Shown here: piece after piece, positions 5,763-61,712 of the stretch
How the letters are laid out: each line of letters starts with the position of its first letter
Position numbering within the stretch: the stretch's first letter is position 1
DNA from: the human T2T-CHM13v2.0 reference genome, Homo sapiens
Assembly (NCBI RefSeq): GCF_009914755.1
Contig: NC_060935.1
Strand: one strand, 5' to 3'
DNA length: 64,000 nt
Notes under the pieces: model-generated
Databases searched by the model: none
Told to the model about the DNA's origin: nothing
The model's input: only the letters and a program-made list of their open reading frames with translations
Translations under genes and position numbers: made by a program

Positions 5763-5891
5763 AAGCCAAACAGAATGAGGAAATCCAGTCTGGATCAAAA
5801 GAATGGGATAGCATATTCCAAAGCCAAACAGAATGAGGAAATCCAGTCTGGATCAAAAGAATGGGATGGCATATTCCAAAGTCAAACAGAA
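5763..5891. repeat. 58-bp tandem duplication (2.2 copies)
   Basis: 5763-5820 and 5821-5878 are identical except for one A/G; a partial third copy lies at 5879-5891. Confidence 0.95.
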
Positions 5892-18369: not shown

Positions 18370-18680
18370 CAGACACACACAGGCACGGGTGGGTGTTCCT
18401 CACACCCAGACACACACAGGCAGTGAGATGTCCCTGTGTACCCAGACACACACAGGCACAGAGAGGTGTCCCTGAATACCCAGACACACACAGGCAGTGA
18501 GGTGTCCCTGCATACCCAGACACACACAAGCACAGCCAGGTGTCCCTGTGTACCCAGACACACACAGGCACTGATGGGTGTTCCTCATACCCAGACACAC
18601 ACAGGCAGCGAGGCGTCCCTGCATACTCAGACACACACAAGCACAGCCAGGTGTCCCTGTGTATCCAGACACACATAAGG
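18370..18680. repeat. Minisatellite, 36-38-bp unit, ~8.4 copies
   Basis: CAGACACACACA(G/A)GCA... units start at 18370, 18407, 18443, 18481, 18517, 18555, 18592, 18628 and 18666. Confidence 0.95.
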
Positions 18681-23021: not shown

Positions 23022-23458
23022 TGTATTAGTCCGTCCTTGCACTGCTATAGAAAAATACCTGAGATTGGGTAATTTATAAAGAAAAGATGTTTAATTGGCT
23101 CATGGTTCCGCAGGCTGTACAAGAAGCATGGAAGCATCTGCTTCTGGGGAGGCCTCAGGGAGATTTTCCTCATGGCGGAGGGCAAAGTGGGAGCAGCCAT
23201 CTTATGTGGCAGGAGCAGGTCCGAGAGATAGGGAAAAGGTGCTACACACTTTAAAACTGTCAGATATCATCATAATTCTATGATAAGACCATCACCAGAG
23301 CACATAGATAATTCTATGATGAGATAATGCTAAACCATTCATGAAGGATACACCCTCACGATCCAATCACAATCACCTCACATCAAGTCCCACCTCCAAC
23401 ACTGGAGATTACAACTGAACATGAGATTTGGATGGAGACACAGATCCAAACCATATCA
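23022..23458 (-). mobile_element. MSTA-like MaLR solo LTR
   Basis: TGTATTAGTCCG...ATACCTGAGATTGGGTAATTTATAAAGAAAAG...CCAAACCATATCA; TSD CTTGG at 23017-23021 and 23459-23463. Confidence 0.92.
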
Positions 23459-30388: not shown

Positions 30389-34256
<3,868 letters not shown>

Positions 34257-53269: not shown

Positions 53270-53521
53270 TATATGTATATTTTTCAGGCTTTGTACTTGG
53301 GTAATTTCAATCAATCCCTATTTTCTTAAACTAGTTGCTTCAATGTAAAACCTGAATTTTTTATTTTCACAGATAGTTATAGGTAAAAATCCAGTGGTAT
53401 CTTGCTTCATGGTAGAAATGCATACTGGCAGAATTGTGTACAGAGTGGAATATTATGAAGGTATGGGGATGAAAAGATACTGGGTGGGGTTACCTTTCTT
53501 AGAGATCTTTTAAAGTAGGAT

Positions 53522-54096
53522 TGCATTGGTTTTCTATTGCTGCAGAACAAGTTAGCACAAACGTAGTGGCTCAAACCAACACACACAAAACTATCTCCCA
53601 GTTTCTGTGGCTCAATAGTCTGGGCACAGTCTAGCTAAATCCTCTGCTTGGGCTTCAATCCAGAAGTTGCTGGAGCTGTAGTCTCATCAGAAGCTTGGCT
53701 GAGGAAAGACTCATTCCAAACTCACTGAGGTTATCAGCAGAATTTATCTTCTTATGGCCGTAGGACTGATGTCTCCATTTTCTTGCTGGCTGTCAGCAGT
53801 TAGCTGCTATCAGCTTCTAGAGGCCAACCCAGTTCTTTGCCATATGCATCCCCACCACAACAACATGACACTTTATTTCTTTAAAGCCTGCAAGGGAGTC
53901 TCCTTCTCGAATCTGCTAAGATGGAGTCTTTTATAATGAAACATAATCATTGAAGTGACATCGCCTTTCCTTTGCAACATCCTATTGGTTGAAGAAAGTC
54001 ACGTCACAGGTGTGTCCTTCACTCAAGGGGAAGGAATTCTAAAAGGACATGGCTCATGGGTGGTGGGCAGGGGTCACTTTGGGTATGTGTGCCACA
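53522..54096 (-). mobile_element. MLT1E/F-like LTR
   Basis: TGCATTGGTTTTCTATTGCTGC..AACAA...TCCAAACTCACT..GGTTATCAGCAGAATT...GTGTGCCACA. Confidence 0.8.
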
Positions 54097-54172
54097 GGAT
54101 CATTCCTCAGATGCTTCTTGGTGGAGTTTTGGCTAAGGGTAAAAGGGTGGTTTTGATGAACTTCAAGGCATT

Positions 54173-54837
54173 TGTGATGATTAATACTGAGGGTCAATTT
54201 GATTGGATTGAAGGACACATAGTATTAATCCTGGGTGTGTCTGTGTGGGTGTTGTCAAAAGAGATTAACATTTGAGTCAGTGGGCTGGGGAAGGCAGACT
54301 CACCTTTAATCTGATGGGCACAATTTAATCAGTTTCCAGCAAATAAAAAGCAGGCAGAAAAACATGAAAAGGAGAGATGGCCTAGCCTCCTAGCCTACAT
54401 GTTTCTCCCATGCTGGATGCTTCCTGCCCTTGAACATCAGACTCCAAGTTCTTCAGTTTGGGGACTCAAACTGGCTCTCCTTGCTCCTCAACTTGCAGAC
54501 AGCCTATTGTGGGACCTTAAGATCATGTAAGTTAATATTTAATAATACTTAATAAACTCTCCTTTATATGTATAAATGTATATATACACGCACATATATA
54601 CATATAGTCTAAGTTAATACTTAATAAACTCCCTATAATGTAAGTTAATACTTAATAAACTCTCATTTATATATGCAAGCATATATATGCATTGCTCATG
54701 CATTTCTTTACCACTGAAGTTGTTTTACCTTGTAACATGATGATTGGGTCTATATATATGCAAACATATTATATATATATGGGAGTTTATATATGTCCTA
54801 TTAGTTCTGTCCCCCTAAGAGAACCCTGACAAATACA
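54173..54837 (+). mobile_element. MLT2A (HERV-L 5' LTR) with rearranged TA-rich region
   Basis: TGTGATGATTAATACTGAG.GTCAA.TTGATTGGATTGAAGG...GAGATTAACATTTGAGTCAGTGG...CCTATTAGTTCTGTCC...GAACCCTGACAAATACA. Confidence 0.92.
54686..54752 (+). repeat. 67-bp perfect copy of 60196-60262 inserted in the LTR
   Basis: TATGCATTGCTCATGCATTTCTTTACCACTGAAGTTGTTTTACCTTGTAACATGATGATTGGGTCTA is identical at both sites. Confidence 0.97.
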
Positions 54838-56231
54838 GATTTTGGTACCAGGAGTGGTTCTAGAGGAACAGAATATTAAGGATGGAGTTCTTTTGTTGGT
54901 TTTGGGGTTTCTGGAATTAGCTGCTTAATATGATCAGACCCAAATGCTAAGGACTCTACTTCTAACACTGTGGAGAACACTCCTTGTCCTTAGAGTGAAC
55001 TGTTTAGAGAGTTATGCAAAATAAATGCATTTGACACTCCTGATTCACTGCTTATGAGAGGCAAGGCGTTTAGTGACTCTATACATAATACCTTTGACCA
55101 CATGTGGAGAACCAAGGAACATAATGAAGCTGGTTAGTTGCTCCTAGGTTCAGTGGACAAAGTGATGAAAGAAAATGATGAGCCCAGGGATTCTGTCTCC
55201 TGGCTTCAAAAGCAGACACTGAGCCTCAAATCTGCCAAGACTGCCCTGAGTGAGAGTCTTATCTCCTGTAGAGAAAGAGCTGAAATTGTAAAAAAAAAAC
55301 AAAAAACAAAAAACAGACACAAGCTCTTATCCTGCAGTGGCTGAGCTGCAAGGGAAGATGCATGCACAGCCTCACCAGGTGCCTACCGTTAAAGTGAGGG
55401 CATTGATTGGAAAAGAATGGGGCCCTGCAACTTGGAATGGGGACATGTGGGAGGAGCCTGATGAAGCTGGGGACACTGAGTTTGTAAACTCTGATGAATA
55501 TTTTTTGCCAGAAGGAACAGCTTCCCCATCCCCAGTAGTGACAACATCCCCTCCCCGACCCATGCTGCCATCAGCCTTTTTACTTTTATCTGAGGAGATA
55601 AACCCTGCACTGCCCGAGGCAACAGTGATGGCCTCCCCTGAGGCAGTTGCCAGGCAAGAAAATGTTGATTCTCCTCAGAAGCCACCCCCAACACCTCTGT
55701 TTGCTTCTAGACCTGTAACTAGACTAAAGTCCTGGCAGGCCCCTAGAGTTGAGGTTGAGAATGTGACCCATGAGGAGGTGCACTACACTCAAAAAGAACT
55801 GTCTGAGTTCTCTAATTTATATAAACAGCAATCTGGAGAACAGGCATGGTAGTGGATATTAAGGGTATGGGATAATGGTGGAAGGAACATAGAGTTGGAT
55901 CAGGCTGAATTTATTGATTCAGGCCCACTAGGTAGGGACTCTGCATTTAATGTTGCAGCTTGGGAAGTTCAAAAAGGTTCTAATTGTCTATTTGCTTGAT
56001 TAACTGAACTATGGATTAAAAGATGGCCCACTGTGAGTGAGCTGGAAATGCCTGATCTCCCTTAGCTTAATGTAGAGGAGGGGATCCAAAGGCTTGGGGA
56101 GATGGGGATGGTGGAGTGGATTAGTCACTTTTGACCTACTCATCCCAGCTGGGAAGGTCCAGAAGATATAGTCTTGACCAATGCCTTGTGAAATAGATTT
56201 GTCAGGGGAGCACCTGCATCTTTGAAGAGCT
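54838..56231 (+). pseudogene. HERV-L internal region, gag remnant, 3'-truncated (no pol or 3' LTR)
   Basis: ORF 55337-55852 contains VKVRALIGKEWGPATWNGDMWEEPDEAG...YTQKELSEFSNLYKQQSGEQAW, typical of ERV-L gag; in-frame stops on either side. Confidence 0.88.
54843..54857 (+). promoter_or_regulatory. HERV-L primer-binding site (tRNA-Leu)
   Basis: TGGTACCAGGAGTGG just after the LTR is complementary to the 3' end of tRNA-Leu(UAA), ...CCACUCCUGGUACCA. Confidence 0.85.
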
Positions 56232-56599
56232 GAAGAGTGCTGACTAAGACAGCACTCATGCATGTCAGTAGTCCAGCTGGCATGCCATTCAGCATTTTGG
56301 TGCTCTGGGTTGATCATAACCATGTGAATAAGGAACTACAGCTCTCTGGTTGAATTCCTTGATACTGAGCCTGGTTTGCAAACCCCTGATTGGCTGGCAT
56401 TTCCTTCTCCTGCTGGGAGACCTTCTCTTGTAGTTCTAGAGATTGGCTGGGACTAAGAGAATGATGACAAATGTCTAGGCCTGGGTGGGGAGCCCTGAAG
56501 CCTGGACATTCCTCATAATTGGATGTCCCAGTGGTTTTCCTACATCTCTGGCTTTTTAAGTTCCCCCCAAACCTTCTCAAGAAGGAGCTGCTCATCAGG

Positions 56600-57024
56600 T
56601 GTATTAGTCTGTTCTTGCATATATATATATATAGAAATATATAAAGAAATACCTGAGACTGGGTAATTTATAAGAAAAGAGGTTGCATTGGCTCATGGTT
56701 CTGTAGGCTGTGCAGGAAGCATGGCAGCATTTGCTTCTGGAGAGGCCTCAGGGAGCTTTTACTCATAGTGGGAGGCCAAGCGGAAGCAGGTGTCTTACAT
56801 GGTAGGAGCAGTACCGAGAGAGTGGGGAGAGGTGCCACATGTTTTAAACAATGAGATCTCATGAAAATTCACTATCACAAGGACAGTACCAAGAGGGGAT
56901 GGTGCAAAACTATTCATGAGAGACCACCCCTGATCCAATCAGCTCCCACCAGGCCCCACCTCCAACACTGGGGATAACAATTTGACATGAGATTTGGGCG
57001 GGGACACAGATACAAACCATATCA
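56600..57024 (-). mobile_element. MSTA-like solo LTR
   Basis: TGTATTAGTCTGTTCTTGCA...ATACCTGAGACTGGGTAATTTATAAG...CAAACCATATCA; TSD TCAGG at 56595-56599 and 57025-57029. Confidence 0.92.
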
Positions 57025-57237
57025 TCAGGTAACTGCCAAGCATGGGAGGAGGAAGACCTAGAAGGATAGGGCAGATTCTGACTTACGGGCTGCAATTTTG
57101 CAGCATCCTCTTTCTCTGGGTCCCACCTGCTTCTGTAGCCCTGCCCTCTGGCTCTGCACAGTGGCACAGCCCCTACTCTTAGCATTTTCCTGCATCATCC
57201 ACCAGCCTGGTCTTGTCTGGTCGCTTGTTCCTGAGTC

Positions 57238-57660
57238 TGCTCATTCATTCATTGACTCATTCAGTGCATATTTACTAAGCTTGGGATGAGCCAGGCACAG
57301 GCTAAGTACAGGCATACAAATACTGTGAACAAAATGAAAAAGGGGACAAAGTCCATGCATCCTTGGAGCTTGGAGCAAGAGACATATGAACTAATATGAA
57401 CAAATAAATGTATAAAAAATGTCAGGTAGTGAGAAGTGCAATGAAGAAAATAACACAAGATAAGGCTTTCAAGAACAAGGCTGCTGTATTATACAGGAGG
57501 CCTGGGGAGGCCTTTGGTAAAATAGCAGCTGATTGCAGCCCTATGGGTCTCTGGGACAGGCAAGCATTCCGGGGCGAGAAACCCCAAGGCAGAAGCGTGC
57601 TTGGCGCATTTGAAGAAAAGCAAGAGGCACTGTGGCTGGAAAGAGAGTGGTCAGGGCATC
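57238..57660 (-). mobile_element. L2 LINE 3' fragment
   Basis: TCATTCATTCATT...ATATTTACTAAGC...GCCAGGCAC...CCTTGGAGCTT...GAGGCACTGTGGCTGGA. Confidence 0.7.
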
Positions 57661-58846
57661 TCTGAGAAGGAGCTATTTAAGCCAAGAATCAGCAAGAAAA
57701 AAAGTCAGGTCTTCAAAGTCAAGGAAAGAAGGAGCGTTTATATGAGATAGATTTGTAAAGCATGGTGGCTGGCACATAGAAAGTGCTCCGTCAATGGGGA
57801 CTGTGACTTCTATTGGATTTCCGATCCGGGAGGTGGTGAACAAGGAAGCCTCAAGGTCAAAGGCTGTTGATCACCACAGCTGTTACCAAGTGGTTTAGGG
57901 AAACTGCCTGAGCCTGAGAGCAAGGCAAGCCTGTGTTAATTTCTGTTATTGAGTCATTGCCCTTGTTGCTATGTGGAGAGGGCTAGAATGTTTTTATGCT
58001 GGGCTCCGCGGGGAAGAGGGTGGTGATTTCTGTGGCTGGTGGTTGGATGTTCCCCGATCGCCTTTATGTCTCCCTCCTTCCCTCTCAGTCCTTTTCTTCA
58101 CCCAACAAAAGACTTCAGAGGCCAGGAGGAGAGGGACTCACAGCAATTATATTAACACCAGGCGTGGGTAGTTTGTAGAGTGCTTTCACGTTTCATCTAC
58201 TTCATCATCAGAACAGCTCTCTAAGGGAGAGGAGGGGGAATCTATGATCCTGTCAATTTCACAGCTGAGAAACTGAGTCCCAGAGAAGTTATTGAGGAAT
58301 TTACGAAGTTCTGGGATGTCAGGAGGGTTTACTGTCCTAGTTGAAGAGCCCAGGAAGACCTCATCTTTTTGCTCTTTGTGTGCGTTGAGGAAGGAGCGCA
58401 TGAGTGAGGGTAGATGGCTCTGACAGGGAGACACTGGAAAGGTCAACGCAGTAGTTAACCAGGCCATGCTAAGCACATCCTGGGGCCAACCCACTTGCCT
58501 GCCAGAAAAGGCCACATGTCTCCACAGTATGACAAGGACATTCCTCTCTACAGGTTATGCCAACCTCAAGACAGAGAAGAAACCAAGTGGGATTATGAGC
58601 TGACACAATGAGACACAGGCTTATAAACCTGCTCCTTGTGGTCCCCTGGAAGGCTGCGTTCATCAGAGTCTCTCTTCTCTAATGTTTTTCTCCACTAGTC
58701 CCCTGGACATCAATCAACTTGGCTCTGTCAAGCGTCTCAGCCTCCTGCATGACCACTTGCCTTTCCTTCTCCTCTCTCCTGCCCTTCCTAGGGGCTTCAC
58801 AGGGACAGGAAGCCAATCCTCTTGCTCATTTCTTTCTTCCTTCTTG

Positions 58847-58919
58847 CATCCATCCATCCATTTGTCTGTCCATCCATCCATCCATCCATCCATCCATCCA
58901 TCCATCTATCCGTCCATCC
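58847..58919. repeat. (TCCA)n microsatellite
   Basis: Imperfect CATC repeats. Confidence 0.95.
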
Positions 58920-59769
58920 TTAGAGTTATTACTATGTGCTAGGGGTTATGAGGATGGATGAGGGGTGGGCTCTACCCTGCCAGACCCTGGTTTCTGTGAT
59001 CTCTCAGGCTGCATGGATAGAGGGGAAAGCATGAAGAAAGGGTTGGCAGCCATTGTGATGGTGATGCTCTGAGGAGGGGCTTGGGATGCTCCACCTGAGA
59101 CTCAGTCTTTCCAGGAACAACTAGAATTGGAAAGGCAGGAACCTGCTTCCAATGGCCATGGGGAGATAGATGCCTAAGAACCTTCTGGATCTGATGTGAT
59201 GCCATGGGCTTTTCTCATGAGTTGACAACCTTTTCTCTCAGGGAGAGGAGTTGGACTTCTTATAGAAGCCACAATGCCTTACAAAAGGTAGAAGCTGATC
59301 TTTAGATATGTCTTCTATTCAGACTTTTCTCTCAACAGCTCTCCACCTCTATCCATCCTCAGAGTAGCCCTTGTGAAGCACAAATCTGATCGTATCCCTC
59401 CCCTGCTCAACAACCGTCTATGGCTCTCCAGTGCCTTTGGGAAAAAGCCCAAGCTTCTTTGCCTTGTCCCTTGGTGTCTTTTCAGTTTCACCTTCAACTG
59501 CATTCTTCCCAGAACTCAGTGTTCCAGTTTATGACCATGGGTTCTCAGGCCCCCAGGCCTTCTCTCAACTCTATTTCCTCTGTAAGTTGTGTGCTGGTAA
59601 ACTGACAATCCAGAAAAAATAAAGACTAAAGAATCCCTGAGTTGTAGCATACGTCAATTTCTGTGGTGTGGGCCAATTTCAATCTACTGACATGACATCA
59701 TTGAACGCAAAGCTGGGTGGGAAGAAACTCAAAGGATTTGTCCTTGTAAGCCCTTCCCCTTACTCCAGT

Positions 59770-60000
59770 GGAGGCAGTACAGTGTCCAAGTTAAGAGTGC
59801 TGTACTCCCCGTTCCCTGCTTTCAGCGGTGTGACTTCAGGCAAGCTACTTAAACTCTCCCTGCCTCAGTTTTCCCTTTTCTAAAATGGGGAGAGGGATCT
59901 CATATTGTTCCTAGGATCATTATAAGAAGGAAATGAGAGGATGCATTACAGTGCTTAGCACTATGCCTGGCTCATGATAAATGCTTAATAAATGTCAACC
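59770..60000 (+). mobile_element. MIR SINE
   Basis: GTGTGACTTCAGGCAAGCTACTTAAACTCTCCCTGCCTCAGTTTTCC...GTGCTTAGCACTATGCCTGG. Confidence 0.8.
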
Positions 60001-61712
60001 ATCACCATCTGCCAGTGAAACACTTCCACATCTTGTATCCTCAGCTCAAACCACCTCCTCCCCAGAGCCTTCTGTGATTTCTTCATTGAACTAAATTACT
60101 CCCTCCTCTCCCTTAGAGAGCTTTTCTGGTGATGAAGTAGGAGATGAGAAGTGAAAGTACTTTACAAACTACCCATGCCGGGTGTCAACTAAATGTATGC
60201 ATTGCTCATGCATTTCTTTACCACTGAAGTTGTTTTACCTTGTAACATGATGATTGGGTCTAAAGCCCCAAGGCTGTCCTGGGCCTGATTCTGCTGTATC
60301 CTCAGCATTTTGTAAAGAACACAGTGGGTGCTCAAATCCATCTTTAGGGGTGATCAGTGAGCTTGTGCATGAGACACAATGTGTAAGGGACTGGGGAAGG
60401 AAAGGAGGCAGAGATATGGATGGGTGTGCAGGGGGGAGCTAGTGGCATCACTTGGATGATCCAGTGTGTGTACATGACAAGGCACATCTGGCGAGGTGCG
60501 CCTACCTAGAGAGCCAGGTGGCCCTCATCCCTCAGAGCTGAAAAGGCCACAGCCCTTCCAGCTTGGGGAATGGCCTTAGCAGCTGGCTCCCAGGGAGGGG
60601 CTCATCTGTGACAGCAAAGCCAGCAGCCTGGCTATTAGAGAGCAGCCAGCATGGGGCTGCAACCCAATGGAAAAATAAATCCCCATCATGCCAGACATGC
60701 TTGCTTCCAGACTGGGGGAGTTAATAAAGTGACTCTGAGGTGGTTTGGAGCCACTGTGGAGGGGCTGCGGAGGAATTTTCTCATTTCTCGTAAAACTTTA
60801 ATTAGTGTTAGTCACTTCAAGTGATTACGGGGACTTAAAATAGCCACCGGCTGGGAGCTTTAATGACACATACGAGGCCATTTTGTTTGTTTCTACAGGG
60901 AGCTGAGCTGGGCTTGTAATAGACACACATTTGTCTCCTCGCTGGACCGTGAGCAACTGGGAGCTCTGTGAAGGCAGGGACAAGTAGAGCTTGTCTGTGT
61001 GTCCCCATGATTGGCACAGAGCCTGAGACATCAGAGAGGCACCACAAGCCTAAATGGACTGCCACTCACTGGCTAAGGGGACCTGTCAGCTCCAACCCAG
61101 TCCCTGGTTTATTGCATTCTCTAGAACTTCTTCCCCAAGTGTTTACTTTTAATCTGTTTTTTCCCACTAGAATATTAGTGTTCTGCTCACTGCTGTATTC
61201 CCAGTGCCCAGATGTAGTAGGAGCTGAATGGAAGGATGGATGAGATGGGACACCATCTTCCAAAAGTGCCACTGGGAGTCCCAGGAGGGCACCTGTATTG
61301 CTGCCACCCGTGGACCTGCCTTCCAGATGGCCGAGACCTGCTTCCAACCAATTTAGTTTTGTTTGTTCCACAAATTCCTCTGCAGGCACAGCCATGCTTC
61401 CCTCCTCCCCCTGCCCATAACACCCTGAGAAACATCCTCTGAGAAAAGGATCCCAGAGTAGTCACTGATGCTGTAGTATGAATTTCAGGAAGTGTCTTGC
61501 CTCTCTAGGTTGTCTCTAAGTCTCCACTCTTATCATGGGAGGACAGGCTTTGCTGTCTTTGTGAATTGATCTTGGATGTCAAAAAGGGAGGAGGAGGGTT
61601 TAGTCCCAGCTCTCCCTGAGGGGGGTTTAGTATGTAATGGTGAAGATCATAGGTTTGGAGTCAGGCTGTCCGGGTTCAAATCCTGGCTCTGCTGTTTCCT
61701 AGCTTTCTCTCT

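What the first reader, a model, noticed from the sequence alone, without database searches (positions are those of the whole stretch)
54528..60262. Perfect 67-bp capture from 5.5 kb downstream pasted into the HERV-L LTR
Seen: 54686-54752 is 100% identical to 60196-60262 (offset 5510, same strand). The 60.2-kb copy continues into L2-like sequence, so it appears to be native. The LTR copy interrupts the TA-rich tract of MLT2A and is flanked by a near-perfect 17-bp direct repeat, TATATATGCAA(G/A)CATAT (54668-54684 and 54753-54769). The junctions show microhomology (TATGCA left, TA right). There is no polyA, so L1-mediated retrotransposition is unlikely. Inference: a recent templated insertion made during repair of a break in the TA tract (polymerase-theta end joining or MMBIR template switching), using a nearby donor. 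It may be human-specific or polymorphic.
Basis: partly seen in the sequence, partly recalled or inferred. Interest (0 to 1): 0.72.

Follow-up and report, generated by a model that had tools for sequence, protein, structure and literature searches.

The report
Repair patch copied into TA repeat
A 67-base piece of human chromosome 11 is present twice, 5.5 kb apart; the extra copy sits in a TA-repeat tract of an old retroviral LTR and is likely a scar of DNA-break repair, a known kind of event that turns up at the same tract in other copies of this LTR.

Summary
54686-54752 equals 60196-60262 at 67/67, same strand, and these are the only two copies found in the genome. The extra copy lies in the TA tract of an MLT2A-type LTR. 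That tract is typically about 20 nt but is 237 nt here, and it also holds two direct and one inverted copy of the LTR's own flank.

This is most likely a repair-mediated duplication (Pace 2009), made by microhomology-primed synthesis with template switches. It falls just outside that paper's 5-kb bin and outside the size and distance range of classic Pol theta insertions.

Not supported: an L2 origin of the donor (not shown) and human-specificity. Perfect identity only bounds divergence below about 4.4%; roughly 30% human-specific, about 94% great-ape age or younger.

Added here: 10 of 180 other copies of this LTR that I read (mostly picked for long tracts) carry 16-170-nt pieces matching DNA 0.26-1.7 kb away, at 79-100% identity. 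The tract looks like a recurrent trap. A same-orientation bias seen at first failed a prospective test (1 of 3). No function is evident.

The parts
54174..54836 (+). MLT2A-type (HERV-L) LTR that received the insertion; MLT2A1 by length and by a likely matching table row
   Evidence: 88-91% to 39 other copies; span 663, or 446 without the tract excess, against 444 for MLT2A1; row chr11:44414859-44415261 + in the MLT2A1 table (the hg38 position was estimated from recalled ALX4 coordinates)
54560..54796 (+). Expanded TA-rich tract, 237 nt, a patchwork of simple repeat and templated pieces
   Evidence: about 20 nt in most listed short-tract copies
54610..54631 (+). Extra direct copy 1 of the LTR's own upstream flank
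   Evidence: 22-nt exact pair with 54641-54662; template near 54528-54559
54641..54662 (+). Extra direct copy 2 of the LTR's own upstream flank
54668..54684 (+). Left copy of the 17-nt direct repeat; part of a small self-complementary hairpin (54668-54688)
   Evidence: 16/17 to 54753-54769; predicted fold -3.0 kcal/mol, no shuffle control
54686..54752 (+). 67-nt captured copy (acceptor)
   Evidence: 67/67 to 60196-60262; two copies genome-wide
54753..54769 (+). Right copy of the 17-nt direct repeat
54781..54789 (-). 9-nt inverted copy of the LTR flank (reverse complement of 54625-54633)
   Evidence: similar inverted pieces occur in other copies, e.g. L024, L096, L150, L187
54837..56230 (+). 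Truncated ERVL-type internal sequence, no 3' LTR (family label recalled)
   Evidence: the same start follows several other LTR copies
60196..60262 (+). Donor copy (inferred to be the native one)
   Evidence: only other copy; the only same-strand site of the first 7 nt in the 9.2 kb downstream of the tract; L2 membership not shown

Best explanation
The 67-mer in the LTR is an exact copy of DNA 5.5 kb downstream, likely written in when a germline break in the LTR's TA tract was repaired by microhomology-primed synthesis that switched template several times (a repair-mediated duplication). SHOWN: the duplicate, its absence from the LTR family, the flank copies around it, and similar captures at the same tract in 10 other copies. 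INFERRED steps: (1) the self-complementary TA tract breaks or stalls; (2) a TA-rich 3' end primes on its own flank, giving the 22-nt direct copies, the hairpin and the 9-nt inverted piece; (3) an end finishing in about 6 matching bases primes at 60196 and copies 67 nt; (4) it releases and re-anneals in the tract on 2 nt (TA), leaving the 17-nt repeat. The polymerase, the template molecule (same chromatid, sister or homologue) and whether all pieces came in one event are unknown. Age is likely within the great apes. No function is indicated.
For: 67/67 and two copies only. The tract is about 20 nt in most short copies (776 exact-anchor and 1236 degenerate-anchor matches, first 100 of each listed). 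Copies of the LTR's own flank inside the tract: 4 of 28 unselected copies, 9 of 23 and 7 of 14 long-tract copies. Ten other copies hold a piece matching nearby DNA: L045 42/45 at 1.68 kb (23, 33), L063 34/38 at 1.5 kb (33, 66), L065 33/33 at 0.6 kb (17, 41), L068 16/16 at 1.67 kb (17, 33), L118 44/49 at 0.8 kb (55, 61), L120 147 nt about 99% at 0.55 kb (54, 61), L122 28/28 at 1.7 kb (66), L141 137/157 at about 1.3 kb (105, 108), L143 152/192 at about 0.5 kb (106, 108), L145 94/98 at about 0.26 kb (108). Own-versus-other-locus scores: 134/30 (this locus), 75/29, 54/28, 32/23, 56/24. Pace 2009: 824 RDs, up to 619 bp, with microhomology, filler or TSD and no polyA. TA repeats break and yield Pol theta-dependent duplications under 5 kb in cancer cells. 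Germline multi-template insertions with microhomology are described.
Against: No empty allele or ape orthologue was available, so microhomology and TSD are inferred from the tract, not measured, and TA-rich sequence yields such matches easily. The 17-nt repeat has 1 mismatch while the 67-mer has none, so the pieces may differ in age. The donor gap is 5443 nt, beyond Pace's 5-kb bin and beyond all 10 other cases. The 67-mer exceeds canonical Pol theta tract length and reach. L065's piece is multi-copy (exact in 3 other loci) and L145's is LTR sequence (own 172 vs others up to 150), so their local origin is likely, not proven; L068 is only 16-21 nt. L059 and L152 have non-simple pieces with no donor in the flanks tested. 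My same-orientation prediction, which would have favoured priming on the resected far end, failed: 1 of 3 new cases; 9:2 overall versus 32:27 background, p=0.11. Donor nativeness through L2 was not shown.
Confidence: 0.65

Rival explanations
1. Replication-fork template switching without a double-strand break (FoSTeS type): the nascent strand stalls in the TA tract, jumps 5.5 kb ahead on the same template, copies 67 nt and returns.
For: Same orientation, 2-6-nt junction matches, mixed direct and inverted local pieces; complex germline template-switch insertions are described.
Against: Sequence alone cannot separate it from break repair. Published break mapping puts breaks at TA repeats and ties small duplications to Pol theta. 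One of 28 unselected copies (L030) appears to lose the LTR 3' end exactly at the tract, which suggests breakage.
Confidence: 0.2
2. A free DNA fragment or RNA-derived patch from the neighbourhood was ligated into a break (class 2 TSIP type), with no synthesis on the chromosome.
For: No polyA, short homologies; TSIP class 2 is defined so; two of 11 captures are inverted; the LTR can be transcribed towards the donor (3 embryo cells in the likely matching row).
Against: TSIs in that paper come from distant regions, whereas the matches found here lie within 0.26-5.5 kb and were the only other genome-wide hit in the cases searched with near-unique DNA; the donor is intact; the flank copies need templated synthesis anyway.
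Confidence: 0.08
3. Assembly or polishing artefact in CHM13.
For: Perfect identity inside a low-complexity tract; reads could not be examined.
Against: Ten other copies show the same architecture at 79-100% identity, which an assembler would not produce; a 67-nt unique island 5.5 kb from its twin is easily spanned by long reads (general knowledge).
Confidence: 0.03
4. Reverse direction, or the 67-mer is native to the LTR family.
For: Donor nativeness through L2 could not be shown, and the donor sits 7 nt from another duplicated segment.
Against: The 67-mer has no third copy in the genome although MLT2A1 and MLT2A2 each have over 3000 copies; it is absent from every other tract read.
Confidence: 0.04

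Closest known systems
Repair-mediated duplication, RD (Pace et al. 2009, PMC2671141; main text parts 1-5 of 8 read, Table S1 searched by terms)
   Same: Insertion of at least 50 nt interrupting a transposable element, one other copy on the same chromosome, no polyA, microhomology plus filler plus TSD-like repeat.
   Different: Donor gap is 5.44 kb, just past the paper's ad hoc 5-kb bin. The acceptor is a TA microsatellite with multi-step flank copies; the paper has no simple-repeat or orientation analysis and Table S1 has no MLT2A row.
Localized non-tandem duplication (Frith and Khan 2018, PMC5829575; passages read)
   Same: Local non-tandem copy; the authors note that some target sites coincide with simple repeats, perhaps because these are fragile.
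   Different: A few long-read examples; I saw no family-wide census of one tract in the passages read.
Pol theta templated insertions, TINS (Carvajal-Garcia et al. 2020, PMC7165422; passages and section 7 part 1 of 2 read)
   Same: Direct and inverted flank copies in AT-rich, microhomology-poor DNA with iterative rounds, as in 54610-54662 and 54781-54789.
   Different: TINS are 3-30 nt from templates within 50 bp; the 67-mer from 5.4 kb is outside this.
Complex MMBIR templated insertions (Osia et al. 2021, PMC8421209, passages and section 10 part 1 of 2; mitotic MM-BIR 2026, PMC13065848, abstract and passages)
   Same: Several templates, mixed orientation, short microhomologies, found as germline variants.
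   Different: MMBSearch calls inverted templates within 100 bp and filters microsatellites out; the mitotic study concerns telomeric breaks in cultured cells.
TSIP class 1 and 2 (Onozawa and Aplan 2016, PMC5110952; part 1 of 4 read)
   Same: Class 2: DNA patch at a break without polyA.
   Different: TSIP donors are distant and the events are polymorphic by definition; polymorphism is untested here; class 1 marks are absent.
Doublets (Thomas et al. 2004; not held, citation and Pace's summary only)
   Same: Short, near-identical, local two-copy duplications.
   Different: Could not be compared in detail.

Membership tests
Repair-mediated duplication (broad definition, Pace 2009) | Insertion of at least 50 nt that interrupts a transposable element | tested here: met
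   67 nt inside the LTR, absent from other copies
Repair-mediated duplication (broad definition, Pace 2009) | Exactly one other copy, more than 50 bp away (not tandem) | tested here: met
Repair-mediated duplication (broad definition, Pace 2009) | No polyA/T tail | tested here: met
Repair-mediated duplication (broad definition, Pace 2009) | Microhomology, filler, deletion or TSD at junctions against the empty site | tested here: inconclusive
   6-nt and 2-nt matches to tract motifs and a 16/17 repeat, but no empty allele to compare
Repair-mediated duplication (broad definition, Pace 2009) | Empty orthologous site in an outgroup primate | not testable with these tools
   the genome has no relatives in the tool
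Pace's 'proximal' set of 824 | Donor within 5 kb (cut-off called ad hoc by the authors) | tested here: not met
   gap 5443 nt, offset 5510; no chr11 44.3-44.5 Mb row in Table S1 (hg18 position estimated from recall). Not filed under this subset.
Canonical Pol theta TINS | Insertion 3-30 nt, template within 50 bp of the break | tested here: not met
   67 nt at 5.4 kb; met only by the flank copies
Canonical Pol theta TINS | Dependence on POLQ | not testable with these tools
   needs cells
TSIP class 1 / L1-mediated insertion | PolyA tail and TTTT/A insertion site | tested here: not met
   against the definition
TSIP class 2 | Polymorphic in humans | not testable with these tools
   no population data held
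MLT2A1 LTR (host element) | Sequence and length of the family; annotated as MLT2A1 | tested here: inconclusive
   length 446 without tract excess versus 444; a table row fits the expected hg38 start and strand, but the lift-over rests on recalled coordinates and no repeat library was searched
L2 (claimed donor context) | Donor and its flanks align collinearly to L2 copies | tested here: inconclusive
   only E 0.97-4.5 hits; the profile and motif attempts failed for technical reasons

The most novel reading that the evidence does not exclude
The TA tract near the 3' end of MLT2-type LTRs is a genome-wide hotspot of germline repair capture: over a thousand near-identical natural reporters in which breaks at a short TA repeat were patched with DNA from 0.3-5.5 kb away for tens of millions of years, at roughly 10-100 times the published density of repair-mediated duplications, and missed by TE-interruption scans.
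Probability: 0.5. Interest if true: 0.55.

Novelty: new member of a known kind. Interest (0 to 1): 0.3.

Why it matters
The single insertion is an ordinary repair scar with no evident function. No gene lies in the window, the annotated enhancer ends 31 nt before the insert, and the likely matching MLT2A1 table row is scored not active.

The family-wide pattern is of more use. TA-repeat fragility is studied mainly in cancer cells. Many near-identical LTR copies with a short TA tract give a natural, datable series of germline repair outcomes, mixing Pol theta-like flank copies with kb-range captures. Such events can be missed by current pipelines: Pace's table has no MLT2A row, MMBSearch filters out microsatellites, and SVAN looks for donors only within a 2-kb window.

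Tried and rejected
L2 origin of the donor: four attempts gave nothing significant, and a genome search found only the local duplicates (67). Left open.

Same-orientation rule: 8 of 8 at first. The prediction was written down and tested on 60 new copies: 1 same, 2 opposite. Rejected as unsupported (9:2 versus 32:27, p=0.11; 8:2 without this locus, p=0.17).

The first cross-locus control was flawed by LTR pieces in the 'outside' sequence and was redone. The masked rerun under-scored L065 and L068 (p 0.077 and 0.046). L122 was first tested on the wrong strand and corrected.

No donor was found for L059 (1.5 kb down, 6.5 kb up) or L152 (2 kb each side). The genome search missed L063's diverged donor, which local alignment found. 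AT-rich runs in L019, L034, L051 and L070 were not resolved.

LTR-body control: 0 captures in 13,571 aligned nt. The expectation was 1.2-4.5, P(0) 0.01-0.30, so this control is weak.

L1 retrotransposition, a family-native 67-mer and canonical Pol theta TINS were rejected for the 67-mer.

Earlier scan findings were not available. Thomas 2004 could not be read. One supplement file of PMC8559712 was not searched. Only the first 30 of 123 'chr11' places of Pace Table S1 were listed; the number searches covered the whole file.
Full report
1. Observation. The exact run is 54686-54752 = 60196-60262, 67/67, same strand, offset 5510. It is the longest exact repeat in the window; chance expectation is about 3e-31. 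A genome-wide search returns only these two places. The 17-nt repeat 54668-54684 / 54753-54769 matches at 16/17. There is no polyA. The host is an LTR at 54174-54836, 88-91% identical to the 39 best of 3919 candidate copies, followed by truncated internal sequence. Its length without the tract excess is 446 against 444 for MLT2A1. A row in the MLT2A1 table of PMC8559712 fits the expected hg38 start and strand and is scored not active (lift-over from recalled coordinates). The claimed L2 context of the donor could not be shown.

2. Anatomy. Between two conserved anchors the tract is about 20 nt in most listed short copies (776 exact-anchor matches up to 53 nt; 1236 with degenerate anchors; 100 rows shown each). 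Here it is 237 nt. In order it holds: simple TA/CA repeat; two extra 22-nt direct copies of the upstream flank (54610-54631, 54641-54662); a small hairpin 54668-54688; the 67-mer; the second 17-mer; and a 9-nt inverted flank copy (54781-54789). The first 6 nt of the 67-mer match the motif that recurs in the tract. In the 9.2 kb downstream that 6-mer occurs twice on this strand and the 7-mer only at the donor. The last 2 nt (TA) run into the tract. These homologies are inferred, as no empty allele was available.

3. Direction. The 67-mer is foreign to the LTR family: it has no third copy and is absent from all other tracts read. The 60.2-kb copy is therefore the likely source. This rests on exclusion, not on L2 continuity.

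4. Other copies. I read the whole tract of 180 other distinct copies: 28 chosen by similarity of the LTR body only (L007 dropped as a duplicate of L004) and 152 chosen for long tracts. Not all matches were fetched: 40 of the 74, 9, and 60 new ones, where rows that did not look like LTR tracts and nine short ones were left out. Flanks of 1.5 kb were scanned systematically for 65 copies; in the rest only visibly non-simple pieces were followed. Flank copies inside the tract occur in 4 of 28, 9 of 23 and 7 of 14. Ten copies hold a piece matching DNA 0.26-1.7 kb away: L045 42/45, L063 34/38, L065 33/33, L068 16/16, L118 44/49, L120 147 nt about 99%, L122 28/28, L141 137/157, L143 152/192, L145 94/98. 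None was among the 28 unselected copies. For L045, L118, L141 and L143 the local donor was the only other genome-wide hit; for L120 it was 99% against 72-79% for five other hits. L065's piece is multi-copy, L145's is LTR body, and L068's is short. L059 and L152 have pieces without a donor in the flanks tested. The identities, 79-100%, suggest events spread over a long time.

5. Enrichment. Pace's density is 0.62 RD per Mb of TE DNA. For an estimated 1500-1900 copies and a 20-60-nt target, 0.02-0.07 events are expected. Four captures of at least 50 nt were found apart from this locus, of which one (L141) to three would pass Pace's single-copy filter: P 0.02-0.07 for one, under 1e-4 for three. 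The LTR-body control found 0 captures in 13,571 nt against 1.2-4.5 expected. The hotspot is therefore suggestive, not proven. No comparison with non-LTR TA tracts was made.

6. A failed idea. The first 8 captures were all same-orientation. I wrote the prediction down and tested 60 new copies: 1 same, 2 opposite. Overall 9:2 against 32:27 in PMC5829575 Table 2, p=0.11. The older pair next to the donor is also inverted. No orientation rule is claimed.

7. Age. P(0 differences in 67) is 0.45 at 1.2% divergence, 0.12 at 3.1% and 0.011 at 6.5%; the 95% upper bound is 4.4%. With Pace's age-class counts as prior and partly assumed divergences, the posterior is 0.23-0.40 human-specific and about 0.93-0.96 great-ape age or younger. 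Pace found 1 of 10 tested human-specific RDs polymorphic, so polymorphism is unlikely, about 5%.

8. Mechanism. Best reading (0.65): a break in the TA tract repaired by microhomology-primed synthesis with repeated template switches. The short direct and inverted flank copies fit Pol theta behaviour in AT-rich DNA. The 67-nt tract from 5.4 kb does not, and fits SDSA- or MMBIR-type copying. TA repeats are break sites whose repair gives Pol theta-dependent duplications under 5 kb in cancer cells. Rivals: fork template switch without a break 0.20; fragment or RNA patch 0.08; reverse direction or native 0.04; artefact 0.03.

9. Relation to known classes. It works like, and meets the testable broad definition of, a repair-mediated duplication (PMC2671141). 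It misses that paper's ad hoc 5-kb bin, though the authors expect genuine RDs beyond it. It is not a canonical Pol theta insertion nor an L1 product. Simple-repeat target sites were already noted. Searches listed no paper, by title or abstract start, on captures in the MLT2A TA tract, and Pace's Table S1 has no MLT2A row; the library is incomplete and Thomas 2004 could not be read. What I saw of each paper is given under Closest known systems; in addition PMC13645644 abstract, passages and section 10; PMC12350158 passages; PMC8559712 passages and one supplementary table row. The labels ERVL-internal, L2, MIR, Alu and MST-like are recalled, not from a library search.

10. Verdict. A real but ordinary repair scar and a new member of a known kind; interest 0.3. 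The family-wide trap is the part worth following (probability 0.5, interest 0.55).

Noticed in passing
window 58152-58236 and 60101-60188: 88-nt inverted pair at 86% identity, 1.9 kb apart, only these two copies found genome-wide. It ends 7 nt before the donor of the 67-mer. Probably an older repair-mediated duplication; direction unresolved.
   Followed up: partly
window 54837-56230: ERVL-type internal sequence stops abruptly after about 1.4 kb, with no 3' LTR.
   Followed up: no
window 56602-57025: A second LTR-like element (75% to 23046-23458) also carries a TA tract at 56619-56643, without a foreign piece.
   Followed up: no
window 53456-54655: The RefSeq enhancer given with the task covers the LTR's 5' part and ends 31 nt before the insert.
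   Followed up: no
L030 (G000:C23:110113858): The LTR 3' end appears lost exactly at the TA tract, as if by a break there.
   Followed up: no
rows C1:202874502, C3:41327018, C7:35074615, C8:75399728, C12:105571035: 5 of 15 very long tracts hold Alu-like insertions at or next to the tract (label recalled).
   Followed up: no
L121 (G000:C7:106148479-106148736): Two long inverted copies of the LTR's upstream flank inside the tract, plus tandem copies of the downstream flank.
   Followed up: no
L059 (G000:C2:164804046-164804137): About 65 nt of a multi-copy repeat inside the tract; 7 dispersed hits at 88-97% over part of it, no local donor found.
   Followed up: partly
L065 and L068: The captured piece is present twice in each tract, so capture was followed by, or part of, a local re-copy.
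   Followed up: partly
window 5763-5891, 18370-18675, 33298-33378: Tandem arrays with 58-, 38- and 40-nt units.
   Followed up: no
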